Shown: positions 2,623 to 47,483 of the stretch, piece after piece
How positions within the stretch are numbered: the first letter of the stretch is position 1
Layout of the letters: each line of letters opens with the position of its first letter
Source: a virus
Taxonomy: Duplodnaviria; Heunggongvirae; Uroviricota; Caudoviricetes
Reading direction: 5' to 3' (one strand)
Virus record (IMG/VR): IMGVR_UViG_3300028577_000006
DNA: 64,000 nt
Made by a program: the position numbers and the translations under genes
Notes under the pieces: model-generated
Databases searched by the model: none
Told to the model about the DNA's origin: nothing
Seen by the model: the letters and a program-made list of their open reading frames with translations, nothing else

Positions 2623-2994
2623 ATGGGTGATCAAAACGAGACGATGAACTGTTCGGACGCGATGAAGCTCGTGCTGGAGCACGGCGCGCGCGTCACACGG
2701 CGTGGATGGCGTGAGGCCCACAGGGCCGGCTGGTCCTCATGGGTGTCATCCATGCACATGAGCCACTTTCCCGGCGTCCGTTCCGAGTTCGTGCGATTCC
2801 ACAATGGGAGCACATCCCTCGGCTTCGGCACGCCGTCCGTGTATCAAGCGTCTACCGGCCCGTCTGAATCAGACCCGACTTCTTTTCGTAGCAACGTCAC
2901 CTTCGAGTGGACGCCAAGCATGGACGACATCGTCGCTACGGACTGGTACGTCATCGAGGGCGACTCGGCAGCGTGGGAGACCAAGGCCGAATGA
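2623..2994 (+). CDS. DUF2829-family protein (paralog 1; alt. start 2644)
   Basis: SDAMKLVLEHGARVTRRGW ... DWYVIE pattern typical of phage DUF2829 proteins. Confidence 0.6.
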   Translation: MGDQNETMNCSDAMKLVLEHGARVTRRGWREAHRAGWSSWVSSMHMSHFPGVRSEFVRFHNGSTSLGFGTPSVYQASTGPSESDPTSFRSNVTFEWTPSMDDIVATDWYVIEGDSAAWETKAE

Positions 2995-3692
2995 CCGGAA
3001 ACTTCCGGGACAAGATCCAGCCGCTCGTCAACCAGCTGCTCGACGCCTGCGCTGAGGCCGACTTGGACTGCGTGACGGTGATTCGACCAGATCCATACGA
3101 AGGACACGACGGACAATCGCTCCACGCGATCAACCTGGACGTGACCATGAAGGGCAACGTCGACAATGGCCGGCCCAACCTACGACTGTCCCGCAGCTAC
3201 ATGAACGTCGGCGACAAACCTTTCACGCTAAACATGCCGCCTCGGGGCGGAGCGGAACGACTTTCTGTGGGCGGCGTCAACAAGAAGGACAGCGACATGA
3301 ATAGCATCGATGGGCCGATGGATGCGATGAGCTTTTCGCAGGCGCTGAGCCTCGCTGCGAACGAAAGCGCACGGATCACACGACCGTTCTGGTCCTCGAA
3401 TGGCGAGCTTGTGTGGGTCGGCATCCTACGCGCCGAGTGTATTGGCGCCGTCAGTCCCCACGTCACCAGTTACGCCGTGTGGCATGTCGCGGCGATGCCA
3501 GATACTCGACCAGACATCGGCGATTCAGGCATGCTGTTCTACATGGCGGAGCAGACCATGCACAAGACGACCGATCGCGACGCCGCTCCGATCGTCTACC
3601 ACAGAACCAACGTCACCTTGGGCTGGAAGCCTTCGGCTGACGACATGCTCGCGGTGGACTGGACGATCATCGACAACGGGATGGCCGAGTGA
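2991..3692 (+). CDS. protein with C-terminal DUF2829 domain (paralog 2)
   Basis: ATGA overlap; C-terminal MSFSQALSLAANESARITRPFW ... DWTIIDNG matches DUF2829 pattern. Confidence 0.55.
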   Translation: MTGNFRDKIQPLVNQLLDACAEADLDCVTVIRPDPYEGHDGQSLHAINLDVTMKGNVDNGRPNLRLSRSYMNVGDKPFTLNMPPRGGAERLSVGGVNKKDSDMNSIDGPMDAMSFSQALSLAANESARITRPFWSSNGELVWVGILRAECIGAVSPHVTSYAVWHVAAMPDTRPDIGDSGMLFYMAEQTMHKTTDRDAAPIVYHRTNVTLGWKPSADDMLAVDWTIIDNGMAE

Positions 3693-4054
3693 ACTTCTCC
3701 GAAGCGCTCCACCTCGTCGTGCACGAGAACGAGAAGGTCACGCGCGCCATCTGGCAAACCGAAGGGTGGGCACGTTCCGCTCAGGCGTCGTGCGACGTTG
3801 GCTCCAAGCTCTGGATCATGACGCTGCTCCCAGGCATGTTCGGCCTGTCGTCCAGTGACGATGACTATTTCTCTGCATTCGGTGGATACGGCCGGCGCCC
3901 GGTCGACAATCAGCCACGGCTTCTTCGCGTCACGTTCGGGCCACTGCGACAGCACAGCGACCCGCCGTCGCGGTTCAATCGCGTGGCGGAATGGATGCCC
4001 GACATGGAGGACATGCTCGCGACGGACTGGATGACCGCGGCAGCCATCCCATGA
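3689..4054 (+). CDS. DUF2829-family protein (paralog 3)
   Basis: ATGA overlap; MNFSEALHLVVHENEKVTRAIW ... DWMTA. Confidence 0.6.
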   Translation: MNFSEALHLVVHENEKVTRAIWQTEGWARSAQASCDVGSKLWIMTLLPGMFGLSSSDDDYFSAFGGYGRRPVDNQPRLLRVTFGPLRQHSDPPSRFNRVAEWMPDMEDMLATDWMTAAAIP

Positions 4055-4710: not shown

Positions 4711-5192
4711 TCGTGGCCTACCGAGATCACGATCCGGAGATGGCTTCTGTCCTGATTGCTCGGGCGGAGCGCGCAAGCCGCAGGTCGACGAGGATGATCC
4801 GCAACGCGTTGCTACGTGAACGGCGACTTGCTGTGATCGCAAGCGGCTGCGCAATCTTCTTCGCTGGCTGGGCAGGGATGCTCATCGCTTGGTCAAGCGA
4901 CCTGGCCTCCATGCGGAGCGCCGACCCGGCGCTGTGTGAAGCGGCGCGCGACGAACAACGAGCAAGCGACGAAGAAGAAGCGAACGCCGCTGCCTTCGCG
5001 GCTTCGTCACTGGCAGATCGGAACCTCTACGACACCGCCATCGACATGGCGGAAGACTGCGAGAGGATCCGCAACCGCGCCGTCGCCGCCGAGCACGAGC
5101 GCGCCATCCACATGGTCGACGAGTGCGCAGCGGAGCGAGAGACGCTGCGTCATGCGATGATCGGACGCGGACCGATCACGGTGGGCCAGTGA
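4707..5192 (+). CDS. hypothetical membrane protein
   Basis: GTGA overlap; predicted TM segment LAVIASGCAIFFAGWAGMLIAW. Confidence 0.4.
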   Translation: MIVAYRDHDPEMASVLIARAERASRRSTRMIRNALLRERRLAVIASGCAIFFAGWAGMLIAWSSDLASMRSADPALCEAARDEQRASDEEEANAAAFAASSLADRNLYDTAIDMAEDCERIRNRAVAAEHERAIHMVDECAAERETLRHAMIGRGPITVGQ

Positions 5193-10497: not shown

Positions 10498-11241
10498 TCA
10501 CAGGGCGCACAACGCGGCAACAAGATCTTGTTCCGCGGTCCCAGTGACCTCCAGCGTCCACGGCGTCGGCGGCCCGAGCCACGATGCTGGATCAATGCGC
10601 ACGAGCGGCGTGGCGCGCTGCGCTGCACGCGTCGGCAGATCGTTCGCTGGGTACACCGAGCCGGACGTGCCGCAGACGACCACGAGATCTGCTGCCTCCA
10701 CCGCCGCGTAAGCGCGCCGCATGTCGACTGGCTCGCCGAATAGGACCACGTCAGGCCGCGCAGGACGGCCGCACTTCGGACAATCCGGCGCCACGGTGCG
10801 CGGCTCGGCGTCCGGCCACGACGGGTGCTTGCGGCGCTCCTTGGCGCAACGCGTACGAAAGAGCGAGCCATGAAGCTCCACTACGTCTTCGGTGCCGGCC
10901 AAGCGGTCGAGACCGTCGATGTTCTGCGTCACGACCGTCAGTGCCTCGACGCGCCTCGACCAGGCAGCAACCGCACGGTGCGCGGCGTTCGGTCCGTTCG
11001 CGAGCACGGCGCCGCGGATTGGTCCCCATAGCTCCCAGAGGTCGTTCCACCATGCCCGACGCTCGGCCGGATCGCTCATCTTGGCCGGCGGCGGCTTCGA
11101 TCGCTTCTCCCGCTCGGGATGGTCGGTCCAGAGACCACCGGAGCCGCGGTACGTCGGCAGCCCCGACGCCACCGAGAAGCCGGCGCCGGTGACGAGCACG
11201 GGCCTGCGAGCGCGGCGCACGAGCGCTTCGAGATCACTCAT
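10498..11241 (-). CDS. Sir2-family NAD-dependent deacylase/ADP-ribosyltransferase
   Basis: GAGFSVASGLPTYRG, TQNIDGL, two CxxC pairs; internal ATG at 11241; upstream part of ORF overlaps a tRNA. Confidence 0.8.
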   Translation of the reverse strand: MSDLEALVRRARRPVLVTGAGFSVASGLPTYRGSGGLWTDHPEREKRSKPPPAKMSDPAERRAWWNDLWELWGPIRGAVLANGPNAAHRAVAAWSRRVEALTVVTQNIDGLDRLAGTEDVVELHGSLFRTRCAKERRKHPSWPDAEPRTVAPDCPKCGRPARPDVVLFGEPVDMRRAYAAVEAADLVVVCGTSGSVYPANDLPTRAAQRATPLVRIDPASWLGPPTPWTLEVTGTAEQDLVAALCAL

Positions 11242-11758: not shown

Positions 11759-12048
11759 AAAATCTTCGAGCAAGGGTCGCGCACGGGTATGGGCCTCGCG
11801 GCCCGATCTTTTGCAAAAAGGGATAACCGTGTTGCATCGGCTCGAAGATCAGAAACAAAACAGAGCAAGGTTTTGAACGCGGGCGGTTGGGTCGGGTTAT
11901 TAGCCCGATGCATGATTGCGGTAACCCGTGATCGTCGGCTCTGTCGAAAATCCTTTCAGAGATAGTAGCGGACGGTGATAACACAGGCAAGGTGGTGCTG
12001 GACGGGTCAAATGATAGATAACCGTCCAGCTTCGGCCTGTGCGTTAGA
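11759..12048 (-). ncRNA. candidate Y RNA (YrlA-like) locus downstream of rsr
   Basis: 290-nt non-coding, lower-GC, hairpin-rich region immediately 3' of rsr and abutting a tRNA: long-range pairing 11763-11771/11840-11848, hairpins at 11791-11804, 11939-11962, 11997-12030; the only support is position next to rsr. Confidence 0.35.
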
Positions 12049-13803
12049 TCAACCTCGGATGAAGTCGGCGATGACCGCCGGAGCCGCAGCGTCCATGCCC
12101 ACGACGTCGAGCATGCCCGCGTCGGTCGGATCTGCGATGGTGAACGGCGAGGCTGCCGTGGCCACGACCACGAGCTTCGCCGGGATGTTCGTCTTCTGAC
12201 GATAGCGCTGGAGCGCGATGTGCGGGTGCACCTTGCCCGCGTACGTCTCGTTGTCGGTGTAAACGCAGAACGCTTCGAAGGTCTTGTCGCCTTCCAACGC
12301 GTAAAGCATCGGCTGCGAACAGTCGGTCGAGCCCATCGGCAGAGCGCGCATGATCTGCAACGCCTGTTCGAGCTTCGTGGACTTGGTGATGTTGATGGGA
12401 GTCGTGCCCGCGCCCGCGCCCGCGCCACGGCCGCCGCCGGACGTGAAGCCGATCATGTGCGTGCTCTCTTCCACCCGTGCGGTCACCATGGCCATGACGG
12501 CCACTGCCTCACGGTGGGTGATGCACGAGTTCATGATCGGCGAGTCCATCGAGCCGGAGATGTCCAACGCGAGCAGGTGCGACTTGCCCGTCGACTCCAC
12601 CGACTCGAACGCCGTGTAGAAGACGCTGTCGAGCGCATCGACGATCGGCTTCACCGCCGACCAGGTCAACGTACCCTTCTCGCCATGGCCCTGTGCATAC
12701 GTACGCAGCGCCAGAAGCACTGCGAACGGGTGCAGCCGCGACTTCTTGATCGCGTCGTAGTTGGTGAGCTTGTCGATCACGCGCTTCGACGCATCCGACT
12801 TCGGCGTGAGGAGACCGTTCGCCGTCATGCGGCCGAGGTTGCGCACGAGCGCATGCATCGGCATCGAGTCGAGCAGCGCATCCCAGGTCTCCGGCTTGCC
12901 GAGGAACTGCGACGGCACCATCTCGTGCGTCAGGCGATGCTCACGGATGAGCTTGAGCAGCGTCGTGTAGTCGACGTCCGGCTTCCGGATCGTCTCGAAT
13001 GCGCCGATGAGTCCCGGCATGCCGTCTCGCGACAACGCCGGCTGACGCTCGGTGAGCGAAGCTGCGAAGTCCTTCGCGGACAGCGAGTCCACGCCAGCAG
13101 CATGACGACGGTGCGCACGCGCTGCCTGATCCTTGCGCTGGATGGAGCGCTCGTCGAGTGAGCCTGCCACGACCCAGCGGAAGAGCGCCGACATGACCGT
13201 GTCGTCACTCTTCGGGTGAGCCTGACGCATCACGTCGCGGTGCGACCGTCCGTTGCGCTGCTGGTACTTCACCAGCTGGTATGCGAGCGAACCCGGATCA
13301 CGCGACGTGTACCACGCCGCGACCGCGCGCTTCAGCGCCGAGCCCCAGCCGCGAAGCTGCTCGACCTGGTCGATGAACTCGAACAGGTGCGCGCCGGTGC
13401 GGCAGACACGCGGCAACGCCGCGAGCGCAAGGCGACGCACGACCACATCCCCGTGGGACGCAGCGATTGCCAGCGCGAAGATCGCCGGGCTGTTCTTCGG
13501 CGCTCGGCCGGACTCGCTCACCGCAGCGATCTGCTCGATCGCCGCCGCCGCGTCATCCGCCAGACACTCCGTGAGCGCCTTCGCGTTCTCGCGCACGAGC
13601 TTCTTCTCCGTCGAGTGGTACGTGCCACCCTCGGCGCCGAGCACGAGGAATCGATCCAGCTGCTTCCAGCGATCGACCTCGAACGTGAAGCCGCCAGCGT
13701 TGTTCTTCACCTGGCGCGGATCGGCCTTCGCCATCTGCGTCGCGTTGGCGTTGACGCCGGACTTCTTGCCCGACTTGGTAACGTGCTGTGCGTAGTTGGA
13801 CAT
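12049..13803 (-). CDS. rsr: Ro60-like ribonucleoprotein Rsr (TROVE domain + C-terminal vWA)
   Basis: 584 aa; TROVE-like N-terminal two thirds and C-terminal LALDISGSMDSP MIDAS motif; classic 60-kDa SS-A/Ro architecture. Confidence 0.85.
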   Translation of the reverse strand: MSNYAQHVTKSGKKSGVNANATQMAKADPRQVKNNAGGFTFEVDRWKQLDRFLVLGAEGGTYHSTEKKLVRENAKALTECLADDAAAAIEQIAAVSESGRAPKNSPAIFALAIAASHGDVVVRRLALAALPRVCRTGAHLFEFIDQVEQLRGWGSALKRAVAAWYTSRDPGSLAYQLVKYQQRNGRSHRDVMRQAHPKSDDTVMSALFRWVVAGSLDERSIQRKDQAARAHRRHAAGVDSLSAKDFAASLTERQPALSRDGMPGLIGAFETIRKPDVDYTTLLKLIREHRLTHEMVPSQFLGKPETWDALLDSMPMHALVRNLGRMTANGLLTPKSDASKRVIDKLTNYDAIKKSRLHPFAVLLALRTYAQGHGEKGTLTWSAVKPIVDALDSVFYTAFESVESTGKSHLLALDISGSMDSPIMNSCITHREAVAVMAMVTARVEESTHMIGFTSGGGRGAGAGAGTTPINITKSTKLEQALQIMRALPMGSTDCSQPMLYALEGDKTFEAFCVYTDNETYAGKVHPHIALQRYRQKTNIPAKLVVVATAASPFTIADPTDAGMLDVVGMDAAAPAVIADFIRG

Positions 13804-15092: not shown

Positions 15093-15666
15093 TTATCGGC
15101 ACTCGCCACTGCCTACCTGCTGCCGGCGACTGTCGGACCGGGCCTGCAAGCTCGCAGCGTCTCGTTGCTCCTGGATGCGCGCTCGGAGGATCTTGTACGC
15201 GATGTCTCTGTTCGCGTGCTGCGAGCGCTCGTTCTCGACGCGCACCTTCAGCCCGGTTGGCTTGTGCGTCATCTGAACAGCAGAGTTCGTCACGTTGCGA
15301 TGCTGGCCACCAGCGCCAGAGCCACGACACGTGATCCACTCGATGTCGCGATCGTCGATGTGGATCTGCGGGCCCTTCGGCTCGTCGAGCACCGCGACCG
15401 TCACCGTCGAGGTCTGCACGCGCCCGCGCTTGTCGTTCGGCGGCACACGCTGCCACCGATGACCACCAGACTCTTGCGCGAAGGCCGCGCTCGCTCCCTT
15501 GCCGCTCGCCTGGAACGACAAGAAGCCGGAACGCTCTTCGACTAGAGCGTAGTCAAAGACCCCTCCGCTCCATCATCCGCGCGTACACGCCGAACTGCTC
15601 GACCACGAGGGCCTTCGCATCGTCGCCACCTTCGCCAGCACGAATCTCTACGATCACCGTTTCCAT
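15093..15666 (-). CDS. truncated class-I release factor homolog (RF2/PrfH-like, GGQ domain) requiring +1 frameshift
   Basis: ORF 15553..15831 (from internal ATG 15666, SD GAGGAGG) encodes ETVIVEIRAGEGGDDAKALVVEQFGVYARMMERRGL and stops at UGA; the +1 frame continues as DYALVEERSGF...HRWQRVPP...RGSGAGGQHRNVTNSAVQMTHKPTGL...ENERSQHANR (ORF 15093..15521), together matching RF2 domains 2-3 incl. GGQ; lacks domain 1 and has PPN in place of SPF. Confidence 0.7.
15550..15572 (-). promoter_or_regulatory. prfB-type programmed +1 ribosomal frameshift site (GGAGGGG-U-CUU UGA C)
   Basis: mRNA reads AUG AUG GAG CGG AGG GGU CUU UGA CUA C: SD-like GGAGGGG 1 nt upstream of slippery CUU U followed by in-frame UGA C, same heptamer as E. 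coli prfB. Confidence 0.7.
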
Positions 15667-21826: not shown

Positions 21827-22282
21827 TTATGAGCCCTGGCTGGCATCTCCACCTGCACCGCACAAGCTCTGCTCTTCAGACACGAAGATCGGTCCGTGAT
21901 GGCCTAGCCTCGCGCCACACGACCTTGAACACGCCACTGTCATCGTCTTGTTTCTACCGGCCCTAAGACGCAGTACGTACTCCTTTATTTCGAAGGGCTT
22001 CTTGCACCAGGCACAAAACCTGGTCACGGAAGGCTGTTCCTGGTGATGGCGCGAATGCTCGCCACGCATGACGACTTCCAGATTGCTTTCGTCGTTGTTC
22101 GTCTTGTCGTGATCAGCGTGGTGCACCACTTCACCCGGAAGCAGGAGCCGGCCAAGGCAGTTCTCGGCGATGACGCGGTGCAGCGGGTACAACCCCTTCG
22201 CGTTGCGTTTTGGATGCGGCGGATCGGTCCGCGCATACTTGTACCCGCCACCCTTGCACGTCGATGTGATCTCGAAGAGCAT
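21827..22282 (-). CDS. HNH endonuclease
   Basis: HHADHDKTNNDESNLEVVMRGEHSRHH HNH motif; C-terminal Cys pairs; embedded in tRNA array. Confidence 0.7.
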   Translation of the reverse strand: MLFEITSTCKGGGYKYARTDPPHPKRNAKGLYPLHRVIAENCLGRLLLPGEVVHHADHDKTNNDESNLEVVMRGEHSRHHQEQPSVTRFCAWCKKPFEIKEYVLRLRAGRNKTMTVACSRSCGARLGHHGPIFVSEEQSLCGAGGDASQGS

Positions 22283-22526: not shown

Positions 22527-22653
22527 AAGGTTTCTAGCAAGGTTCGTAAGATGGCATGATGACGGCTGCTCTGCCACCTGAGCTACATCCGCACGGGCGG
22601 AAGGTTGGACTCGAACCAACGACATGCTGTTTGGGTAACCATCTGACTTCGGC
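22527..22653 (-). pseudogene. degenerate tRNA-like pair: 58-nt acceptor+T-arm element (22596..22653) and tRNA 5'-half-like segment (22527..22595)
   Basis: 22596..22653 has T-arm GTTGG-TTCGAGT-CCAAC and acceptor-like ends but no D/anticodon arms; 22527..22595 begins GCGGATGTAGCTCAGGTGGCAGAGC (canonical acceptor-5' + D-arm) then loses tRNA structure. Confidence 0.35.
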
Positions 22654-22728: not shown

Positions 22729-22866
22729 AAGTTCTCTGGCAAGGGTCGTCGTTGGATATTACGGCGTTCTACTCTTGAACTACGCCCTCCATAGAAAGGG
22801 AAGGCGGCTGGAGTCGCACCAGCGTTACCGGCTCCATATGCGGTAACCAACAACATCGGCCAGAGA
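22729..22866 (-). other. structured 138-nt spacer with T-arm-like hairpin (GCTGG-TGCGACT-CCAGC) and 7-bp hairpin GTTACCG/CGGTAAC; no tRNA fold found
   Basis: hairpins seen in sequence; acceptor pairing absent. Confidence 0.3.
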
Positions 22867-23177: not shown

Positions 23178-23248
23178 TGGACCTCCCGGGAATCGAACCC
23201 GGATCAGCAGCTTGCAAAGCTACTAGTCTCCCATTGACGTAGAGGCCC
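23178..23248 (-). tRNA. tRNA-Ala (anticodon UGC)
   Basis: G3:U70 pair, anticodon stem GTAGC/GCTGC loop TTTGCAA. Confidence 0.8.
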
Positions 23249-23253
23249 ATCAA

Positions 23254-23324
23254 AGCGGCTCGGGGGAATCGAACCCCAGTGGTCAGTGTGGCACACTGAC
23301 TGCGGACCACCCGCTACGAGCCGC
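23254..23324 (-). tRNA. tRNA-Gly (anticodon GCC)
   Basis: acceptor GCGGCTC/GAGCCGC, anticodon stem TCAGT/ACTGA loop GTGCCAC. Confidence 0.75.
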
Positions 23325-23475
23325 AAACAAAACTTGGGTGGATAGACCGGATTTTCACCGGCGCGCGCCGAGCTTACTGACTCGCCGCTCTGAACTGGGT
23401 CTCGTTTCCGGGCCGTTCCTCTCCCGTACTCCTCGTCCCAGCCGGATGCTGAACATCGCCTGAGCTACTATCCAC
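23325..23475 (-). ncRNA. ~151-nt tRNA-like structured RNA (8-bp acceptor-like stem GTGGATAG/CTATCCAC, D-arm-like TAGCTCAGG, T-arm-like CCGG-TGAAAAT-CCGG)
   Basis: occupies the slot between tRNA-Gly and tRNA-Ala; internal hairpins GGATG-TTCAG-CATCC etc.; no canonical anticodon arm. Confidence 0.35.
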
Positions 23476-23548
<73 letters not shown>

Positions 23549-23585
23549 GTTGCACTTCTGTCCGACACTCGCTACGCTCGCCGGC

Positions 23586-23987
23586 ATGGAACTTCCCGAC
23601 AAGATGCAGAAGGAACTCGCTGACGGCCTCCTGATCGCGTATCGCGTGAAGGAAAGCAAGCTCGACTACTCGCTGATGAACCGGCCCGAGCCGAACCTGA
23701 CCAGTCTCGACGACCACGCTCTGGCCACCGCCATCGTCCTCGCCGGGCGCGAGTTCAAGATCGTGGTCGACGACACCATCATGAAGAGCGAGCGGATCGC
23801 CCGAGACGACGGTCGGACCGTGACGTACAACGAGGCGATCGACATCAACTGGGAAGACCGCATCATCCGATCCACCCGTCGCAAGGACATGACGCTCGAC
23901 GTTCTCGCCGGCATCGTGACCCAGCTGGTGCGCGATGCCGCCGCGCCCACCGGCAGCCCCAGGCCGAGCCCGGGCAAAGCGAACTAG
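23586..23987 (+). CDS. hypothetical protein inside tRNA array
   Basis: ORF 23550..23987; internal ATG 23586; protein-like composition. Confidence 0.45.
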   Translation: MELPDKMQKELADGLLIAYRVKESKLDYSLMNRPEPNLTSLDDHALATAIVLAGREFKIVVDDTIMKSERIARDDGRTVTYNEAIDINWEDRIIRSTRRKDMTLDVLAGIVTQLVRDAAAPTGSPRPSPGKAN

Positions 23988-24685: not shown

Positions 24686-24890
24686 AAAGACACATGCCCT
24701 TCCCTGGTATCGCTCCAGGCCCTTCTCCTTTTCAGAGAGACGCTTCCACTTGGTTAGCTTGAAGGGCGAATCACGGTACCGGTTGCCGACGCACGCGTGC
24801 TTAGTGCGTTTTCCGCGTCAGCCGCAAGCTTGATCACTGCCTGCCGCACCGACGTAGCGCGCCACCAACAACTTGGCCTGGTACCGTGAA

Positions 24891-26808: not shown

Positions 26809-27135
26809 CTACGCCTCCACCTTCACCAAGCGTCCGTAGACCTGGGACCGATTCACCCAGCCGTTGAGCCTGCCATGATTGTTTCCAATCAGGAAGCCTC
26901 GGTTGAGGTCCACGGACTTCACGAGGTGGAGATAGTAGGACGAGCGGACGAAACAGAGAACGACGTCGTCGACCTCTGGATCGGCCACGAGAGGTTCGAC
27001 CGTACACAGCTGCCCAGACTTGATCCGGGGCGTCATCGAGTTGCCTCTGGGCCGGAACGAAACCGTCTCGCCGGCCACGAGCTTCTCGGCGTACGGCTTG
27101 GCCCAGCCATCCCTCACGCTCAGCCCTTCACGCAC
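26809..27135 (-). CDS. S24-family (LexA/UmuD-like) peptidase domain protein
   Basis: GNSMTPRIKSGQL matches the GDSMxP serine-nucleophile motif of S24 peptidases; no HTH domain. Confidence 0.6.
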   Translation of the reverse strand: MREGLSVRDGWAKPYAEKLVAGETVSFRPRGNSMTPRIKSGQLCTVEPLVADPEVDDVVLCFVRSSYYLHLVKSVDLNRGFLIGNNHGRLNGWVNRSQVYGRLVKVEA

Positions 27136-28283
27136 ATGATCTGCTTGAGCTTCTCGTGGATCGTCACGAGGTCAGCCTGGTTGGCCATGACCTGGTCGAT
27201 GTCCTTGTACGACATGGGGATCTCGTCGAGCACGCTGCTGTCCTTGCGGCACTCGACGCCCGCTGTCGCTGACGCAAGATCGTCGAGCGTGAACGTTCGC
27301 TTCGCTTCGCCGCGCGACATGCGGCGGCCGGCGCCGTGTGATGCCGAATGGAACGACTCCGGGTTGCCGAGGCCCTTCACGATGTACGAGCACGTTCCCA
27401 TCGAGCCCGGGATGATGCCCCACTCGCCTGCGCGCGCCGAGATCGCGCCCTTGCGTGTGACGATAACGTCCTCGCCGAAGTGGCACTCGTGGCTGACGTA
27501 GTTGTGGTGACAGGAGATCGGCTCGAAGAATGCCACTCCGGGTACCATCGAACGCAAAACATCCTGGTAGATGACAAGCATCACCTGACGATTCTCCTTC
27601 GCGTATCGCTGCGCCCATTCCAAATCGTGAACGTAGGCCGCCATCTCTGGCGTCTTCGAAAGAAACACGGCGAGATCACGGTCCGGAAGAAGGGCGTTGT
27701 GTGCGAGCTTCTTCGCTCGCTTGATGTGGATCTCGGCCAGGCACTTTCCGATGTTGCGTGAGCCCGAATGCAGCATCATCCACACGTGATCGTGTGAATC
27801 CAGGCACAGCTCGATGAAGTGGTTCCCGCCGCCGAGCGAGCCCATCTGCTTCATCGCCGTGCCGTACTTGTCCGCCACGCTCTCGTCAAGATCCTTGAAG
27901 CTCGCCCAGAGTGCCGACTTACGCGCGCTCTTGTGCATCGAGTCGTGTCCGTTCGGACCAAGCGGAATCACCTCTTCGATCTTCGACCGAAGATCTTTCA
28001 GCGAATCCGGAAGATGGTGCGACGTCATGTTGGTCTCGACCGCCAGCATGCCGCAGCCGATGTCAACTCCCACGGCAGCGGGCGAGAGCGCGTCCTTCAT
28101 CGCGATCACCGAGCCGACGGTCGCGCCCTTCCCGAGGTGCACGTCTGGCATGACCGCGACGTGCTTGAACGCCCACGGAAGCGCAGCGATGCCCTTCAGC
28201 TGATCGATCGCAGCCGACTCTACCTCGTGTCGGTTCGCCCACATCTTGATGGGAACCACCTTGCCCTGAAGCTCGTCGATCAT
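27120..28283 (-). CDS. rtcB: RNA-splicing ligase RtcB (3'-phosphate/5'-hydroxyl RNA ligase)
   Basis: 387 aa; metal-binding His/Cys-rich motifs (GGNHFIE, HSGSRN, AHNA) typical of RtcB. Confidence 0.9.
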   Translation of the reverse strand: MIDELQGKVVPIKMWANRHEVESAAIDQLKGIAALPWAFKHVAVMPDVHLGKGATVGSVIAMKDALSPAAVGVDIGCGMLAVETNMTSHHLPDSLKDLRSKIEEVIPLGPNGHDSMHKSARKSALWASFKDLDESVADKYGTAMKQMGSLGGGNHFIELCLDSHDHVWMMLHSGSRNIGKCLAEIHIKRAKKLAHNALLPDRDLAVFLSKTPEMAAYVHDLEWAQRYAKENRQVMLVIYQDVLRSMVPGVAFFEPISCHHNYVSHECHFGEDVIVTRKGAISARAGEWGIIPGSMGTCSYIVKGLGNPESFHSASHGAGRRMSRGEAKRTFTLDDLASATAGVECRKDSSVLDEIPMSYKDIDQVMANQADLVTIHEKLKQIMCVKG

Positions 28284-28560: not shown

Positions 28561-30543
28561 TCACGTCGACCTCCAAAAGATCTCCTGCGCCTCCACGCAA
28601 AGCTCGTTGAGCTTCGCCACGTCTGGCGCGTGCCGCAACGTTGACTCCTTGTACAGCGTCTGCATCTCTGCGTCCTGCTGTTCGGCCCACTCGACCAGCC
28701 TCTCGTACGGCCACTCGCCTGCGCGGATCGCGAGAAGCTCCTTCGCGTCCGGACGCCGCACGATGACACCTTGGCCCTCCAAGATCTCGCGACACATGCG
28801 CAAGAGTCTGACGAGGTGCATACCGTGTTTGGTGTTGCCGTGGATCGCGATCTTGCCTTCGCGCCGTGTCACCAGGATCTCGTTAGGCACCGTGAAGCAA
28901 ACGATTCTTGCGCCAGTCATCCGCAACAAGTCTAGTGACTGGCTGTCCGGAGCCAGACGCACGTGCGCCGCTATACGTCGGTCACCAACGTAGACCTGAT
29001 ACATGGGCCCTTTACCACCCTCGTAAACGTACGGCCCCCATACCTGCGACACGATGCCCGACGACACGCACATCACCTGGACATCATCAGCCAGTTGCTT
29101 CGACGAGGTGTAGTACACGCGGCTGTGTTCGCGTTCCGTGCCATCCCCGGCGACCATCACTTCCAGCAGCAAATCGACCTGTCGCCTGGAAAGCTCGCGC
29201 GTCCAGTCAGGCAACCGCAACGATGCAGATCCAACGCCACAGCACCGCTCGACCCAACCAGCCCGAGTGCGGTCAGCAATCGTCCACACGTGCTCATCGC
29301 ACGCAGCCGAACGGTGCTCGTCGGCTTGGTGCGTGTACGCGTACCTCCGGATGGCATCCGGAAACTTCACCATCAACCCGTCCATGTACGGCTGCTGACG
29401 GCCTCCGACCTTCTGCGAGATCCGCAGCACAGATGCGCTTCCGTCCGCCAGACGCTTACCCACGCACCCTTCGGTGACGTAACAGCCCAATAGAACAAGA
29501 TCGTCGTCTGACACCGGATACTCGACTTCGGTCGCATCAGCAGTCAGCCGCGTATGAAACCCGGACCGCCGATCGGCCAAGAGATCACGCAACGGCCGCA
29601 GCGTCCAATCGGCACGGTCCGCGGCGAACTCCCAAGAAAACCCGTTGGTTTTGCTGCGGTGTGCCGGCGACACCAACATTCGATGGTTCATGGTCACGGC
29701 ACAGTTGGAGTGCTGCGGATGCAAAACGGCGATCTCCCCGTCGAACGGCTTGGCCACGCGCTCGGTGAAGCCCTGGTACTCGATGCGACCCGTACGCGGA
29801 TTCAACGTTCCCACGCGCGCGTCGTCGGGGATGTCGTCATACCGCTTCCAGCCGCTTTCGGTCAGGAACTCGGTGTCGTCCAAGTAGCAGTCGTAGCCAT
29901 GCTGCGCTTCGAGCGCCGCGCGCTTCTGGTTCCGATCCGTCTTCCATCGCTCGTGCGAGTTCCACGCATCGAGCGCGGCCTTGTACTTCTTCTCCTTCGC
30001 CACGAGGTCCATGACGTTGGCGTCGCCGGCCATGCCTTCGGCGGCCATCTTGTCGAAGGCGCCCATCATGTCGGGCGTGATCTTCATCTCGGTGGAGAGG
30101 CCGTACTCCTTGCGCGTCGGCTTGTGGTCTGGCGGGTTGAGCAGGTAGCCACGATGCGTGCGGATCCGCTTCAGTTGGCTGACCGCATACCCGCTGAACG
30201 TGTGCCGCGCCTTCTTCGACAAGAAGAGGTCGCGGTTCTCACGGATCAGTCGTCCTGCCGGATGCTGGAAGAGCACGTCCGAGTCATCGACGAAGAGCAC
30301 CTCGATGATGTTCGGGTTGCAGTCGGCAGCCAGGTTGCAGAACTTCCGGATGTCGTAAACGACCTTGTCTTCCGGCTCCATCTGCTGGTGCTGCTCGAAG
30401 CTGTACGCGAAGCCCAGCACGAAGTTCTTCGGCGAGACCGCGAAACCCTTCGTGTCGATGTCCGACGTCGGCAAGCTGGTGCCGTACGCGTGGCTGCCGT
30501 GCCGCGCGAGGAAGACGGTGTGCTTGGCGATGTCGAAGTGCAT
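28561..30543 (-). CDS. Pol-beta-superfamily nucleotidyltransferase (RNA-repair-associated type) interrupted by an intein
   Basis: N-extein RHGSHAYGTSLPTSDIDTKG (GS..DxD NTase motif); intein CYLDDTEFLTESGW ... two LAGLIDADG blocks (LLGCYVTEG, LLLEVMVAGDG) ... VCFTVPNEILV...IAIHGN followed by Thr. Confidence 0.7.
   Translation of the reverse strand: MHFDIAKHTVFLARHGSHAYGTSLPTSDIDTKGFAVSPKNFVLGFAYSFEQHQQMEPEDKVVYDIRKFCNLAADCNPNIIEVLFVDDSDVLFQHPAGRLIRENRDLFLSKKARHTFSGYAVSQLKRIRTHRGYLLNPPDHKPTRKEYGLSTEMKITPDMMGAFDKMAAEGMAGDANVMDLVAKEKKYKAALDAWNSHERWKTDRNQKRAALEAQHGYDCYLDDTEFLTESGWKRYDDIPDDARVGTLNPRTGRIEYQGFTERVAKPFDGEIAVLHPQHSNCAVTMNHRMLVSPAHRSKTNGFSWEFAADRADWTLRPLRDLLADRRSGFHTRLTADATEVEYPVSDDDLVLLGCYVTEGCVGKRLADGSASVLRISQKVGGRQQPYMDGLMVKFPDAIRRYAYTHQADEHRSAACDEHVWTIADRTRAGWVERCCGVGSASLRLPDWTRELSRRQVDLLLEVMVAGDGTEREHSRVYYTSSKQLADDVQVMCVSSGIVSQVWGPYVYEGGKGPMYQVYVGDRRIAAHVRLAPDSQSLDLLRMTGARIVCFTVPNEILVTRREGKIAIHGNTKHGMHLVRLLRMCREILEGQGVIVRRPDAKELLAIRAGEWPYERLVEWAEQQDAEMQTLYKESTLRHAPDVAKLNELCVEAQEIFWRST
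28834..29889 (-). mobile_element. intein (~352 aa) with LAGLIDADG homing-endonuclease domain
   Basis: Cys1 block A, block F-like VCFTVPNEILV, C-terminal HGN then +1 Thr; two LAGLIDADG motifs. Confidence 0.65.
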
Positions 30544-30547
30544 GGCT

Positions 30548-31030
30548 CTAGCTCCAGTCGACTTGTAGGCCCCAGCAGGTCTTGACATCGTAGACCTTGC
30601 GAAGAGCAGAGAGTTCTTCGGGGAACTGCCCCTCGAACAACGCCATCTCCGCCTCACGGTCCACGCCGGCCAGATCTACGTGATGGCTCGCGCCTCTATC
30701 TCCGTTCAGCCTCAAGCCGACCGAGCCTCGGATGTTCGGTACGAAGTAGACGACGTCCTCGTCCTCGTCATCACGGATCGACGACAGGCGCTCGCTCTCG
30801 CCGAGCGCTTCGTGCGGCGACGGTCGACCCTTCACCAGCTTCGTCGTCTTGCCTGTCGCAGTGCCACACGTGGCGCAGAACGACGAGAGCGCAGCCTGCA
30901 TCCAGGTCTCGCGCTTCTTCCACTGCGCACACTTCGAGTTCGTGCACCCGTACACATCTACCTCGCGCTCGCTTGGCTCTGCGGTCGCCTCGGCATACGG
31001 CCCGACGTACATGCTCATGTAGAGACCCAT
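30548..31030 (-). CDS. hypothetical zinc-ribbon protein
   Basis: CTNSKC ... CATCG Cys pairs; start uncertain (GTG 31057 or ATG 31030). Confidence 0.4.
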   Translation of the reverse strand: MGLYMSMYVGPYAEATAEPSEREVDVYGCTNSKCAQWKKRETWMQAALSSFCATCGTATGKTTKLVKGRPSPHEALGESERLSSIRDDEDEDVVYFVPNIRGSVGLRLNGDRGASHHVDLAGVDREAEMALFEGQFPEELSALRKVYDVKTCWGLQVDWS

Positions 31031-45986: not shown

Positions 45987-47483
45987 CTACAGGACATCCC
46001 TCGAATGGATGCCGTCCAGGATGTACTTGACGTCCTTCTCGATGTCGTCTTCACCGGGGACCGAGAGACCGGTGCCGGTGCCGAACCCGGTCGTGAGACC
46101 GGAGCCGCTGATGATCGCGTTCGGGCTGTTGTTCGGCACAAGGCCGTTCAGCTGCTCGATGACCGACGAGCCAGTCGTCTGGCCGGTGGGCGAGGCGATG
46201 GCGACAACTTGGAAGCCCTGACGGGGCGGGATGAGGATCGGACGCGCCAAGCGCATGAGCGCGCTCGACGTCGGCACGCCGTTGTTCGCGCGCGGGAGGC
46301 TGTTGCCATTCGCGCCGCCGAACCCGGAATCCGTCGCCGCGCCAGGCGCAGCCGGATCGAACGGATCGAGCTGAAGCTGGTTGTCGTCGAACGTCACCGA
46401 CGCGGACTGAGCGAACGCGCGACCAGTCAGCGTTGCTGCATGGGCGAAAGTGACAGTCGTAGCGGCGATGAGGTTGCCCTGCATCGACGCAGTCGTGTTG
46501 ACCGTGATGGCACCGGTCGACGTGAAGTAGACGTTGTGTGCGCGTGCTCCGTTGACCAGAACGATTTGTGCAGCGGGGCCGACCGTGAATGCACCGAGCT
46601 GGAAGACGAACGTGGCATTCGGATTGCCACCGCCATTCAGCGTGAGAACACCTGCGCCAGCAGTCAAAGAGCTGGCGCCGTGGAAGTATACGCCTGGTGC
46701 GAACGTGAGTCCACCAAGTTCCGCAGCGCCAGTGTTGGTTCCAGACAGGGCGTTGAGCGCTGGCACCGCGACCGCGGACAGGTAGGTCTGTGCCGCCGTG
46801 GCAAGGCCATCGGCATCAACGAAGCCAGTCACGACACCGGGCGGGAATCCGGTGATCGTCGGGCTGGTTGGTCCGACACCAATGTTGCCACCAATCGTGG
46901 TTCCAGCAGCAACGACGTTTGTGACGCCGGCCGATCCTAGCACGATGAACTGTGCTGCGGGGCCCAAAAATGGATCGTTCTGAATCGCTCCGGCCGCACC
47001 TGGCCTCGCAACACCGTTGCCGGCGAAGTAGCCATCGAGACCACCAGCCATCGGGGTGTACGCGGTGAACGTCGTGAGCTGCGGCTTGTCACCAGCGACC
47101 ATCTGCCAGAAGAACTGGTTCTGGGTCTGGTGGTAGAGCTTGTGAACGCGCATGACACGATCACGCGGCGCGCCCGGGATCGTGCCAATCGGCTCTGGCA
47201 ATCCCCGCTGCACCGTGACCGGCGCTTCCGGGTTGAACCGGAAGTACGTCCAGACGCGCACCGCGAGGGTGATGTACGTCTGATCCGACGGGAAGAAGCC
47301 GCCCGTGGTCAGGTTCGACACCGAGATGTCGGCGCCCTGACGGACGAACAGCTGCGCGCGGTTCGGGACTGCTCCGAACATGCCCTGATTGGTGGATCGA
47401 AGATCCACCGAACCATCGGTGCGGATGAGGCTGTCGTAGAACGGCTGATGAACACGCTCGCGGGTACCAACGATCTTCGGCAT
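45987..47483 (-). CDS. structural protein paralog B (498 aa) with inserted ice-binding-like (DUF3494) beta-helix domain
   Basis: shares MPKIVGTRERVHQPFYDSLIR...NPEAPV N-term and LPRANNGVPTSSALMRLARPILIPPRQGF...DGIHSRDVL C-term with paralog A; central ~240 aa with LGSAGVTNVVAAG...NVYFTSTGAITVNTTASMQGNLIAATTVTFAHAATLTGRAFAQSASVTFD. Confidence 0.65.
   Translation of the reverse strand: MPKIVGTRERVHQPFYDSLIRTDGSVDLRSTNQGMFGAVPNRAQLFVRQGADISVSNLTTGGFFPSDQTYITLAVRVWTYFRFNPEAPVTVQRGLPEPIGTIPGAPRDRVMRVHKLYHQTQNQFFWQMVAGDKPQLTTFTAYTPMAGGLDGYFAGNGVARPGAAGAIQNDPFLGPAAQFIVLGSAGVTNVVAAGTTIGGNIGVGPTSPTITGFPPGVVTGFVDADGLATAAQTYLSAVAVPALNALSGTNTGAAELGGLTFAPGVYFHGASSLTAGAGVLTLNGGGNPNATFVFQLGAFTVGPAAQIVLVNGARAHNVYFTSTGAITVNTTASMQGNLIAATTVTFAHAATLTGRAFAQSASVTFDDNQLQLDPFDPAAPGAATDSGFGGANGNSLPRANNGVPTSSALMRLARPILIPPRQGFQVVAIASPTGQTTGSSVIEQLNGLVPNNSPNAIISGSGLTTGFGTGTGLSVPGEDDIEKDVKYILDGIHSRDVL

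What the first reader, a model, noticed from the sequence alone, without database searches (positions are those of the whole stretch)
23325..23475. 151-nt tRNA-like RNA occupying a tRNA slot in the array
An 8-bp terminal stem (GTGGATAG/CTATCCAC) encloses a D-arm-like TAGCTCAGG start, several internal hairpins and a T-arm-like CCGG-TGAAAAT-CCGG next to the 3' strand, but no anticodon arm. It lies exactly between tRNA-Gly(GCC) and tRNA-Ala(GGC). It could be a tRNA with a large insertion, a tRNA-mimic such as a YrlA-type Y RNA, or a degenerate tmRNA-like element.
Basis: seen in the sequence. Interest (0 to 1): 0.55.

Follow-up and report, generated by a model that had tools for sequence, protein, structure and literature searches.

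The report
tRNA-shaped RNA with enlarged D-loop
A large phage carries, inside its tRNA gene array, a conserved gene for an RNA that folds like a tRNA but cannot read codons and has a 64-base extra domain in its D-loop; it belongs to no described RNA family and its function is unknown.

Summary
On the minus strand, 23475-23335 encodes a 141-nt RNA. It has an 8-bp terminal stem, a UAGCUCAGG D-arm start, a 5-bp/7-nt T-like arm next to the 3' strand, and an encoded CCA that none of the 37 neighbouring tRNAs has.

One true homologue exists, in a distant phage (L093/L196). It is 74% identical, although the two phages' Ro60 proteins are only 20% identical. Eight base pairs show compensatory changes.

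Deleting 64 nt from the D-loop in silico makes ARAGORN call both copies a cloverleaf tRNA with a 6-nt anticodon loop (CAGUAA). So this is a tRNA-derived, non-decoding RNA with a conserved two-hairpin D-loop insert. The insert carries a sarcin-ricin-type AGUA/GAA internal loop.

It is not a tRNA, tmRNA or YrlA by Rfam or ARAGORN. Two separate YrlA-like RNAs lie 500-900 nt away.

Four relatives (L217, L234, L237, L235) lack the element in the same slot, and in L235 that slot holds an HNH gene. It is therefore an accessory, probably horizontally moved gene.

Function is inferred only. The most likely role is a tRNA mimic that engages a tRNA-binding protein in the phage's RNA-damage conflict.

It is a new family of a known kind. 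The nearest classical analogue is T4 species 1 RNA.

The parts
23468..23475 (-). 5' strand of the terminal (acceptor-like) stem, GUGGAUAG. The first G pairs with C73, which gives 8 bp. It starts directly after the discriminator base of tRNA-Ala(ggc).
   Evidence: Five of 8 pairs are changed on both sides in the homologue.
23458..23467 (-). U8-A9 linker, D-stem 5' strand GCUC, and the start of the D-loop (AGGC). This is the tRNA consensus UAGCUCAGG.
   Evidence: Identical in both copies. Used as the D-arm by ARAGORN after insert removal.
23445..23457 (-). Insert hairpin H1: GAUGU-UCA-GCAUC.
   Evidence: One pair is changed on both sides and two on one side in the homologue, which has 6 bp here.
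23395..23441 (-). Insert arm H2. It has an outer helix CUGGGAC/GACCCAG. The internal loop GAGGAGUAC / GGAAACGA is invariant on the 5' strand and has two G-to-A changes on the 3' strand (AGAAACAA in the homologue). It carries AGUA opposite GAA (sarcin-ricin type) and a possible tandem G.A. The arm ends in a GGG/CCC stem with a variable 10-nt loop.
   Evidence: Compensatory changes in the outer helix: one counted formally and three by hand alignment. AGUA/GAA is a canonical sarcin-ricin sequence (PMC1865062). The 3D fold has not been tested.
23387..23394 (-). End of the D-loop (UUCA) and D-stem 3' strand GAGC.
   Evidence: Invariant, so there is no covariation for or against it. Supported by the ARAGORN and covariance-model results. 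The predicted MFE instead pairs part of it into a longer H3.
23369..23384 (-). Hairpin at the anticodon-arm position: CGAGU-CAGUAA-GCUCG, with a 6-nt loop and no U33.
   Evidence: U.G becomes C-G in the homologue.
23346..23362 (-). T-like arm GCCGG-UGAAAAU-CCGGU. It has a 5-bp stem and keeps G53-C61 and U54/A58. Positions 55-56 are GA instead of the usual UC.
   Evidence: One pair is changed on both sides.
23335..23345 (-). 3' strand of the terminal stem, CUAUCCAC, followed by an encoded CCA.
   Evidence: CCA follows the stem in both copies. None of the 37 tRNAs of the array encodes CCA.
23325..23334 (-). U-rich trailer AGUUUUGUUU before tRNA-Gly(gcc). It is not part of the mature RNA.
   Evidence: The homologue has CCAUUUUCC.

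Best explanation
It is a real, selected gene for a tRNA-derived RNA that does not decode.

Shown:
- The body is a complete cloverleaf: a 7-bp acceptor stem plus a -1:73 pair, a GCUC/GAGC D-stem, a 5-bp arm at the anticodon position, a T-like arm, and N73-CCA.
- A conserved 64-66-nt two-hairpin domain is inserted in the D-loop.
- The anticodon loop has 6 nt (CAGUAA) and the T-loop is UGAAAAU.
- The element is accessory, being present or absent among close relatives.

Inferred:
- It is transcribed with the tRNA array.
- Its 5' end is made by the cut that releases the upstream tRNA-Ala (RNase Z or RNase P).
- Its 3' end is trimmed back to the encoded CCA, which would block RNase Z.
- The tRNA shape gives stability and access to tRNA-binding proteins.
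- The conserved surfaces are the functional part. These are the sarcin-ricin-type AGUA/GAA loop of the insert, the CAGUAA loop and the UGAAAAU loop.

Committed mechanism: it acts as a tRNA mimic that binds, and so titrates or recruits, a tRNA-directed protein in the phage-host conflict over RNA damage. This is the same conflict served by the phage's 37 tRNAs, RtcB, RlaP, Ro60 and YrlA-like RNAs. The most likely target is a host tRNA-cleaving or tRNA-binding defence factor.
For: - Homologue L093:1213-1354 (the same contig as L196:5094-5235) has the same architecture: 172 and 167 bits with model R1.
- The two copies are 74% identical although the Ro60 proteins of the two phages are 20% identical.
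- The copies have drifted toward their own genome composition (62% vs 55% GC), so the similarity is not due to recent transfer.
- 98.5% of cells are paired and 8 pairs are changed on both sides, against 0-1 in the slid controls.
- Indels of 2 and 1 nt between the copies exclude a coding region.
- After insert removal ARAGORN calls a 76-nt tRNA with a 2-nt 'anticodon' in both copies.
- The next-best R1 hits are ordinary tRNAs aligned with the insert skipped.
- CCA is encoded in both copies and in 0 of 37 neighbouring tRNAs.
- The insert loop strands are invariant or nearly so, while the flanking helices covary.
- AGUA/GAA is a recognised sarcin-ricin motif sequence.
- Accessory status: the same slot is 8-11 nt long in L217, L234 and L237, and holds an HNH gene in L235.
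- Context: Ro60, RtcB and RlaP lie on the same strand, and both phages that carry the element encode Ro60.
Against: - There is no expression, processing or binding data.
- Only two independent sequences exist, so the D-stem, the GGG/CCC stem and most of H3 are invariant and untested by covariation.
- Nearest-neighbour energies favour a longer H3 over the D-stem by 6-10 kcal/mol.
- The single-sequence fold is not exceptional (z = -1.4 and -1.7).
- The decoy/adaptor role rests on context and on analogy, not on any test.
- No partner protein has been identified.
Confidence: 0.4

Rival explanations
1. It is a third Y RNA of the phage Ro60. In this reading it is bound by Ro60 and tethers it to an effector through the insert, like the extra Y RNAs (YrlB, Yrn2) found beside YrlA/Yrn1 in bacteria.
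For: - Both phages that carry it encode Ro60 on the same strand, 9.5 kb and 4.8 kb away.
- Every bacterium studied has at least two Y RNAs, and some escape homology searches. Y RNAs mimic tRNA, and in M. smegmatis they are cut by RNase P and receive CCA (PMC4201824).
- Ro/TROVE proteins in jumbo phages are thought to work with a tRNA-like partner (PMC7824862).
Against: - There is no YrlA hit at E<=10.
- No conserved GNCGAAN0-1G motif is present.
- The terminal stem, where Y RNAs bind Ro60, has 5 of 8 pairs replaced between the copies. It is therefore not a sequence-specific site.
- Each phage already has two YrlA-like RNAs.
- L197, L199, L205 and L206 encode Ro60 but lack the element.
- L217, the closest relative, keeps both YrlA-like RNAs but lacks the element. 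Its Ro60 region was not fetched.
Confidence: 0.13
2. It is a decaying tRNA gene, hit by an insertion and a loop deletion, that is carried along in the array without function.
For: - The cloverleaf body has defects: a 6-nt anticodon loop and an odd T-loop.
- It is absent from the closest relatives.
- It sits in a slot that also accepts an HNH gene.
Against: - Two distant phages keep the same defects and the same insert.
- Substitutions are concentrated in helices and are compensated, while the loops stay invariant.
- The composition of each copy has adjusted to its own genome.
- Neutral decay would not preserve this pattern.
Confidence: 0.1
3. It is a working translation RNA. It could be a decoder with a two-base or otherwise unusual anticodon that promotes frameshifting or recoding. 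Alternatively, it could be a precursor whose D-loop insert is removed and the halves rejoined by the phage RtcB.
For: - An intact acceptor stem, N73-CCA and a T-loop U54/A58 are retained.
- RtcB is encoded 3.7 kb away.
- Phages of this group carry suppressor tRNAs.
Against: - There is no U33, and the loop has 6 nt in both copies.
- The T-loop lacks the 55-56 UC.
- Even after insert removal the molecule is non-canonical.
- The excised element matches no Rfam family, intron families included, at E<=10.
- Bacteria have no known tRNA-splicing endonuclease.
- The insert's internal-loop sequence and its H2 helix (by compensated changes) are conserved, which would be unexpected for an intron that is simply discarded.
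Confidence: 0.06
4. The conserved insert is itself a small mobile element that landed in the same tRNA gene in two phages.
For: - Distribution is patchy.
- Homing endonuclease genes lie within the arrays.
- Array segments can be spread by homing endonucleases in T4 (PMC2330249).
Against: - The scaffold outside the insert is as conserved as the insert, and it shares the same unusual loops in both copies.
- Scans with insert blocks anchored on the adjacent D-stem found the insert in no other tRNA or context, and within the fetched loci the insert block alone recurs only as chance hits.
- The unit that is present or absent is the whole 150-nt gene.
Confidence: 0.05

Closest known systems
Bacteriophage T4 species 1 RNA (rnaC, 139 nt), with species 2 RNA (rnaD)
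   Same: - It is a stable RNA of about 140 nt encoded inside a phage tRNA gene cluster, next to a tRNA.
- It has a terminal stem, a T-arm next to the 3' strand, and a large internal hairpin domain.
- It is annotated only as a small, stable RNA, and no function is recalled for it (my own knowledge).
   Different: - There is no sequence homology (R1 gives 17 bits over part of it).
- The T4 RNA has a canonical GGUUCGAAUCC T-loop.
- It has no UAGCUCAGG D-arm and no encoded CCA at the annotated end.
YrlA-type bacterial Y RNAs (Rfam RF02553; Chen et al. 2014, PMC4201824)
   Same: - They are tRNA-mimicking non-coding RNAs encoded on the Ro60 strand in Ro60-bearing phages and bacteria.
- Some are processed by RNase P and receive CCA.
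   Different: - The topology is permuted. In YrlA the ends form the Ro60-binding stem at the anticodon-stem position and the acceptor-like stem is closed by a loop. Here the ends form the acceptor stem.
- There is no GNCGAA motif and no Rfam hit.
- The window has its own YrlA-like RNAs at 22545-22645 and 22733-22850.
Canonical tRNA (Rfam RF00005)
   Same: - The acceptor stem, U8-A9, GCUC/GAGC D-stem, 5-bp anticodon-position stem, 5-bp T-stem with G53-C61, and N73-CCA are all present.
- It is recognised as a tRNA once the insert is removed.
   Different: - It has a 64-nt insert in the D-loop.
- The anticodon loop has 6 nt and no U33.
- The T-loop is UGAAAAU.
- Two nucleotides, instead of one, separate the D stem from the anticodon stem.
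- It is not called by ARAGORN or Rfam as it stands.
tmRNA tRNA-like domain
   Same: It has an acceptor stem plus T-arm with CCA, and non-tRNA sequence in between.
   Different: - It is 141 nt, against about 350-400 nt for tmRNA.
- It has no G3:U70, no tag reading frame and no pseudoknots.
- It coexists with a complete tmRNA in the homologue's phage.
Non-decoding pseudo-tRNAs of bacteria (for example tRNA-Other of Bacillus cereus; from my own knowledge, not checked here)
   Same: They are tRNA-derived genes with non-canonical loops that are kept for a role outside decoding.
   Different: Those have normal length. None is known to carry a structured D-loop domain or to sit in a phage array.

Membership tests
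tRNA (RF00005 / ARAGORN) | Detected as a cloverleaf by the family model | tested here: not met
   No ARAGORN call and no Rfam tRNA hit on 23335-23475 even at E<=10. It is called only after 64 nt are deleted in silico.
tRNA (RF00005 / ARAGORN) | 7-nt anticodon loop with U33 and a 3-nt anticodon | tested here: not met
   The loop is CAGUAA (6 nt) in both copies. ARAGORN reports a 2-nt 'anticodon' gt.
tRNA (RF00005 / ARAGORN) | T-loop U54-U55-C56-R57-A58 | tested here: not met
   The loop is UGAAAAU. U54 and A58 are kept, but 55-56 are GA.
tRNA (RF00005 / ARAGORN) | Acceptor stem with an N73-CCA 3' end | tested here: met
   7 bp plus C73 (A73 in L093) plus an encoded CCA. Maturation at that end has not been tested.
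tmRNA (RF00023) | Family model match; G3:U70; tag reading frame and pseudoknots | tested here: not met
   ARAGORN's tmRNA search finds nothing in the window or in the excised element, and there is no Rfam hit on the element. The third pair is G3-C70. The length is 141 nt. A separate tmRNA is present in L093.
YrlA / bacterial Y RNA (RF02553) | Family model match at or above 69 bits | tested here: not met
   No hit at E<=10 on the element. Other loci in the window score 36.8 and 30.4 bits.
YrlA / bacterial Y RNA (RF02553) | GNCGAAN0-1G motif near the 5' end, in a stem formed by the 5' and 3' ends | tested here: not met
   The near-match GGCGAUG in the window lies in H1 and is GGAGACG in L093. 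The terminal stem is not sequence-conserved.
YrlA / bacterial Y RNA (RF02553) | Encoded near Ro60 on the same strand (within 4 kb in Chen et al.) | tested here: inconclusive
   It is on the same strand, but 9.5 kb away in the window and 4.8 kb in L093. It is absent from relatives that encode Ro60 (L197, L199, L205, L206).
YrlA / bacterial Y RNA (RF02553) | Bound by Ro60 | not testable with these tools
   This needs a binding assay or immunoprecipitation.
tRNA with intron (group I or bulge-helix-bulge) | A recognisable intron whose removal restores a canonical tRNA | tested here: not met
   The excised element matches no Rfam family at E<=10. ARAGORN's intron mode finds nothing. The insert is in the D-loop, and the product of removal is still non-canonical.
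Sarcin-ricin (bulged-G, loop E) motif | AGUA on one strand opposite GAA on the other, next to a closing pair | tested here: met
   AGUA (RNA positions 46-49) lies opposite GAA (68-70), with C50-G67 next to it. It is conserved in both copies, and the sequence is listed as canonical (PMC1865062). This is met at the sequence level only; the 3D fold is not testable here.
T4 species 1 RNA (rnaC) | Sequence or structure homology to rnaC | tested here: not met
   R1 gives 17.2 bits over 96 nt of rnaC, less than for the T4 tRNAs. The resemblance is one of kind only.

The most novel reading that the evidence does not exclude
The RNA defines a new class. In this reading a tRNA body is used as a chassis to display a sarcin-ricin-type ribosomal mimic from its elbow. 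That would let one phage RNA imitate both a tRNA and the 23S sarcin-ricin loop, and so trap host toxins that cut tRNA anticodon loops or the sarcin-ricin loop (VapC-type and similar defence nucleases), or engage a translational GTPase.
Probability: 0.1. Interest if true: 0.8.

Novelty: new variant of a known kind. Interest (0 to 1): 0.55.

Why it matters
Phage tRNA arrays are usually read as codon-usage or anti-defence tRNA supplies, and their non-tRNA occupants are almost unstudied. T4 species 1 and 2 RNAs are still annotated only as small, stable RNAs.

This element is a clean case:
- It has a tRNA chassis that has lost decoding features.
- It has gained a conserved structured domain and an encoded CCA.
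- It is kept by selection in two distant phages and behaves as an accessory gene.

If it is a mimic that engages a tRNA-directed defence or repair protein, it would add an RNA-based layer to the phage-host conflict over tRNAs. It would also give a concrete, small RNA of about 140 nt to test.

It also shows that standard tRNA and Rfam annotation leaves structured genes in these arrays unlabelled.

Tried and rejected
1. 'The element is the missing tRNA-Phe.' Rejected.
   - The window has a sub-threshold tRNA-Phe(gaa) at 24695-24767(-).
   - The homologue's phage has its own tRNA-Phe.

2. Hammerhead-like reading of CUGAGGAG...GAAAC in L093. Rejected by eye: the window copy has ACGAGGAG, and stem II does not close.

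3. Local sarcin-ricin hairpin fold (AGUAC-GGGA-G...). Rejected because the 3' side is not conserved between the copies. The internal-loop reading AGUA/GAA is conserved.

4. K-turn reading (GAG bulge plus G.A/A.G). Possible in the window but weaker in L093 (A.A), so it is left open.

5. Short tag or peptide reading frame. Rejected because of the 1- and 2-nt indels between the copies.

6. Loop-loop pairing between the H1 and H2b loops. No consistent complementarity in both copies.

7. Searches for more homologues.
   - Eight scans of viral contigs.
   - One scan of metagenome contigs.
   - One scan of species-representative genomes.
   - blastn against GenBank phages.
   - nhmmer and covariance-model searches of about 2.5 Mb of fetched loci.
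   - These found only L093/L196 and identical copies of the window phage (L082, L083, L169).
   - L001, L092, L094-L100, the other loci of L101-L195 and L207-L216, and L225-L233 were chance matches.

8. L200:2269-2412 has a similar outline in the same slot. It is not matched by R1, and ARAGORN does not call it after insert removal. It is not counted as a member.

9. A generic 'acceptor plus T-arm' scan gave too many chance hits in this G+C-rich DNA to be useful.

10. The upstream tRNA-Ala genes of the two phages are not unusually alike, so there is no sign of a transferred tRNA-Ala-plus-element unit.

11. No promoter or terminator signal above the shuffled expectation lies around the element.

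Full report
**What is in the sequence**

All 37 tRNA genes that ARAGORN finds in the window lie on the minus strand between 11241 and 25674. Read on that strand, the finding starts one base after the discriminator of tRNA-Ala(ggc) (23476-23548). It ends 10 nt before tRNA-Gly(gcc) (23254-23324).

In the order of the RNA, the features are (coordinates checked):
- GUGGAUAG (23475-23468)
- UA
- GCUC
- AGGC
- hairpin H1, GAUGU-UCA-GCAUC
- CGG
- arm H2 (23441-23395)
- UUCA
- GAGC
- GG
- hairpin H3, CGAGU-CAGUAA-GCUCG
- GCGCGC
- GCCGG-UGAAAAU-CCGGU
- CUAUCCAC (23345-23338)
- CCA (23337-23335)
- AGUUUUGUUU

Two points are not. The last 10 nt of the reported interval are a trailer. There is also a hairpin at the anticodon-arm position, although its loop has 6 nt.

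**Known families**

- ARAGORN calls no tRNA or tmRNA on the element.
- Rfam 15 at gathering thresholds finds only tRNAs in the window.
- A permissive scan of 23200-23600 (E up to 10) gives no hit of any family on the element. That includes tRNA, tmRNA and YrlA.
- The fold of the single sequence is not unusual (z = -1.41).

By itself, then, the sequence could not be told apart from chance.

**Context**

The window comes from a large uncultured phage.
- The RtcB protein is found unchanged on a 258,975-bp contig.
- Identical copies of the region occur in several metagenomes.
- It has no close relative among GenBank phages.
- On the strand of the array it encodes Ro60 (TROVE plus vWA, 12049-13803), RtcB (27120-28283) and RlaP with a LAGLIDADG insertion (28561-30657).
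- Two gaps of the array, on either side of tRNA-Cys, match Rfam YrlA over the full model but below threshold. These are 22545-22645 at 36.8 bits and 22733-22850 at 30.4 bits, against a gathering score of 69.

These two gaps are the likely Y RNAs of the phage Ro60, in line with Chen et al. 2014 (PMC4201824). They are different genes from the finding.

**A homologue**

The pattern TAGCTCAG-N(85-115)-GGTGAAAATCC, searched in IMG/VR, gave nine loci, of which one is real: L093:1213-1354. L196 is the same contig with wider flanks.
- It too lies in a tRNA array and starts one base after the discriminator of a tRNA-Ala (here tgc).
- That phage also has Ro60, YrlA-like RNAs and a complete tmRNA 280 nt downstream.
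- The two Ro60 proteins are only 20% identical, yet the two RNAs are 74% identical over 143 columns.
- The copies have 62% and 55% G+C, following their genomes.
- They differ by indels of 2 and 1 nt, which rules out a coding region.

**Structure**

On the two-sequence alignment, with the structure I proposed, 98.5% of cells are paired. Eight pairs are changed on both sides: five of eight in the terminal stem, one in H1, one in H2 and one in the T-like arm. When partners are slid by 1-3 columns, 23-42% of cells pair and 0-1 pairs change on both sides.

Aligning H2 by hand from its inner end gives three compensated pairs (C-G/U-A, G-C/U-A, G-C/U-A) and one pair changed on one side. About 25 of the 37 differing columns lie in helices that stay paired (my count).

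The unpaired blocks UAGCUCAGG, GAGGAGUACGGGAGA, CAGUUCAGAGCGG, CAGUAA and UGAAAAU are identical in the two copies. GGCCC-R-GAAAC-R-A differs only at the two purine positions.

**The body is a tRNA**

When the stretch between UAGCUCAGG and UUCAGAGC is removed in silico (64 nt in the window), ARAGORN calls both copies a 76-nt tRNA. The call has these features:
- a 7-bp acceptor stem
- U8-A9
- a GCUC/GAGC D-stem with an AGGUUCA D-loop
- a 5-bp anticodon stem with the 6-nt loop CAGUAA, reported as a 2-nt 'anticodon' gt
- a 6-nt variable region
- a 5-bp T-stem
- N73 and CCA

The covariance model R1, built from the two copies, scores them at 172 and 167 bits. Its next-best matches are ordinary tRNAs aligned with the 70 insert positions skipped, at 39 bits or less.

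None of the 37 tRNAs of the array encodes CCA, but both copies of the element do.

One point stays open. The D-stem is invariant, so covariation cannot test it. Nearest-neighbour energies prefer pairing GCG (overlapping GAGC) with CGC to lengthen H3. The cloverleaf model is 10 kcal/mol (window) and 6 kcal/mol (L093) above the MFE.

**The insert**

H1 is a plain hairpin. H2 is an irregular arm, with strands of 8 and 7 nt between the outer helix and a GGG/CCC stem. In both copies AGUA (RNA positions 46-49) faces GAA (68-70), next to the pair C50-G67. AGUA/GAA is one of the canonical sarcin-ricin (bulged-G, loop E) sequences (PMC1865062).

G42-A43 can face G73-A74 as tandem G.A in the window; in L093 the facing bases are A-A. 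The terminal 10-nt loop of H2 varies. This is a sequence-level match to a known protein-binding 3D motif. The fold itself was not and cannot be tested here.

**Distribution**

No further homologue was found in any of the following:
- IMG/VR, eight scans
- JGI metagenome contigs
- one genome per bacterial or archaeal species
- GenBank phages
- about 2.5 Mb of related phage loci searched with nhmmer or R1

Relatives were reached through RtcB and through the 133-aa gene next to the element. They have the same array order, and the slot between tRNA-Ala(ggc) and tRNA-Gly(gcc) differs as follows:

| Relative | How related | Slot content |
|---|---|---|
| L217 | RtcB 86% identical | 11 nt |
| L234 | neighbour gene 84% identical | 11 nt |
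| L237 | reached through the neighbour gene | 8 nt |
| L235 | reached through the neighbour gene | 530 nt containing an HNH gene |

L217 keeps both YrlA-like RNAs. Relatives of the L093 phage with Ro60 at 68-76% identity and the same array order also lack the element.

The element is thus an accessory gene in an insertion-prone slot. It is not a fixed partner of Ro60 and YrlA. Homing endonucleases, which are frequent in these arrays, are known to spread array segments in T4 (PMC2330249). That is a plausible route for its patchy distribution.

**How it most likely works**

Shown:
- It is a selected, structured RNA gene of tRNA origin.
- Its anticodon loop and T-loop are incompatible with normal decoding.
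- It has a conserved D-loop domain and an encoded CCA.
- It has accessory status.

Inferred:
- It is co-transcribed with the array. No promoter or terminator signal stands out.
- Its 5' end is made by the cut that releases tRNA-Ala.
- Its 3' end is trimmed to the CCA.
- It is stable and has access to tRNA-binding proteins through its tRNA shape.
- It acts through the conserved loops and the sarcin-ricin-type arm.

I commit to a tRNA mimic that titrates or recruits a tRNA-directed protein in the conflict over RNA damage. I put about 0.85 on the identity part and about 0.35-0.4 on the functional part.

Rivals:
- **Third Y RNA.** This is weakened by the freely covarying terminal stem, the missing motif, and absence from relatives that encode Ro60.
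- **Dead pseudogene.** This is weakened by the substitution pattern.
- **Unusual decoder or spliced precursor.** This is weakened by the loops.
- **Mobile insert.** This is weakened by equal conservation of the scaffold.

**Comparison with what is known**

The nearest thing by kind is T4 species 1 RNA (rnaC, 139 nt). It is a stable RNA in the T4 tRNA cluster with a terminal stem, a T-arm next to the 3' strand and a large internal domain. There is no homology to it.

The element works like a tRNA mimic, as Y RNAs and the tmRNA tRNA-like domain do, but it fails the defining tests of both. No paper in the searched library describes such an element. I rate it a new variant of a known kind, of moderate interest.

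Noticed in passing
window 22545-22645 (-) and 22733-22850 (-): Two full-length but sub-threshold matches to Rfam YrlA (36.8 and 30.4 bits; gathering score 69). They fill the array gaps on either side of tRNA-Cys and are probably the Y RNAs of the phage Ro60. Both share UGGUUACC near the 5' end instead of GNCGAA. The same pair is conserved in relative L217 (9209-9328, 9407-9537).
   Followed up: partly
window 24695-24767 (-): An unannotated tRNA-Phe(gaa) with an atypical T-loop (AGCGAUA). ARAGORN calls it only at a 90% threshold, and Rfam misses it. It sits in the Trp-Asp slot, where relatives have a normal tRNA-Phe.
   Followed up: yes
window 24771-24889 (-): A 119-nt domain closed by a 10-bp stem (UCACGGUACC/GGUACCGUGA) with four internal hairpins, between tRNA-Trp and the hidden tRNA-Phe. 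The fold of the whole gap has z = -2.56. It has no Rfam match.
   Followed up: no
window 11981-12043 (-): A long hairpin with a pyrimidine-rich loop directly after the Ro60 stop codon (z = -4.66). It gives a spurious near-threshold Rfam hit (ceN72-3). It could be a terminator or a YrlB/Yrn2-like second Y RNA.
   Followed up: partly
window 28561-30657 (-): RlaP (RNA-repair Pol-beta nucleotidyltransferase) is 698 aa with a LAGLIDADG domain, against 324-351 aa in relatives (L217, L220). An intein or homing-endonuclease insertion is likely. It is followed on its strand by a small ORF and then RtcB, an order (RlaP, small ORF, RtcB) also seen in L217.
   Followed up: no
window 23586-23987 (+): A 133-aa gene of unknown function runs antisense in the middle of the tRNA array. 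It is conserved at the same place in many related phages (34 homologues, 40-94% identity).
   Followed up: partly
L235:4361-4890, and window 21827-22282 (-): HNH endonuclease genes sit between tRNA genes. In L235 one occupies exactly the Ala(ggc)/Gly(gcc) slot that holds the element in the window, so the slot is an insertion hot spot.
   Followed up: partly
L200:2269-2412 (+): In the same array region, between tRNA-Ala(ggc) and tRNA-Ala(tgc), a different 144-nt RNA has the same outline. It has a GUAAGGG/CCCUUAC stem, UAGUUCAAG, a large insert, AGAGC, a short-looped hairpin, and a GCAGG-CGGAAAC-CCUGC arm. It is not matched by model R1 or by ARAGORN after insert removal.
   Followed up: partly
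L200:9495-9656 (+) and L200:5463-5682 (+): These are tRNA-like genes with canonical D- and T-arms. They carry inserts of about 90 and 150 nt after the anticodon-stem 5' strand, and the first ends in ACCA. They may be intron-containing tRNAs or further tRNA-derived RNAs.
   Followed up: no
L093:~1560-1632 and L197:~4915-4987: A small conserved RNA lies just upstream of the phage tmRNA in two phages (shared AAAGCAUA.A.GG.GAUGC). It has an acceptor-like stem and a T-arm. There is a weak Rfam 'permuted tmRNA' hit at L093:1437-1768.
   Followed up: no
L093:4230-4306; L201:1424-1497; L203:8527-8600: Suppressor-type tRNAs (anticodons tta and cta) occur in related jumbo-phage arrays. This hints at stop-codon recoding in this group.
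   Followed up: no
window 15093-15521 (-), 10498-11241 (-), 2623-4054 (+), 45987-47483 (-): Other cargo includes a 142-aa release-factor-domain protein (PCRF/RF-1, resembling the ArfB ribosome-rescue factor), a SIR2-domain protein, three consecutive Tad2-like (anti-Thoeris) genes, and an ice-binding-like domain protein.
   Followed up: no
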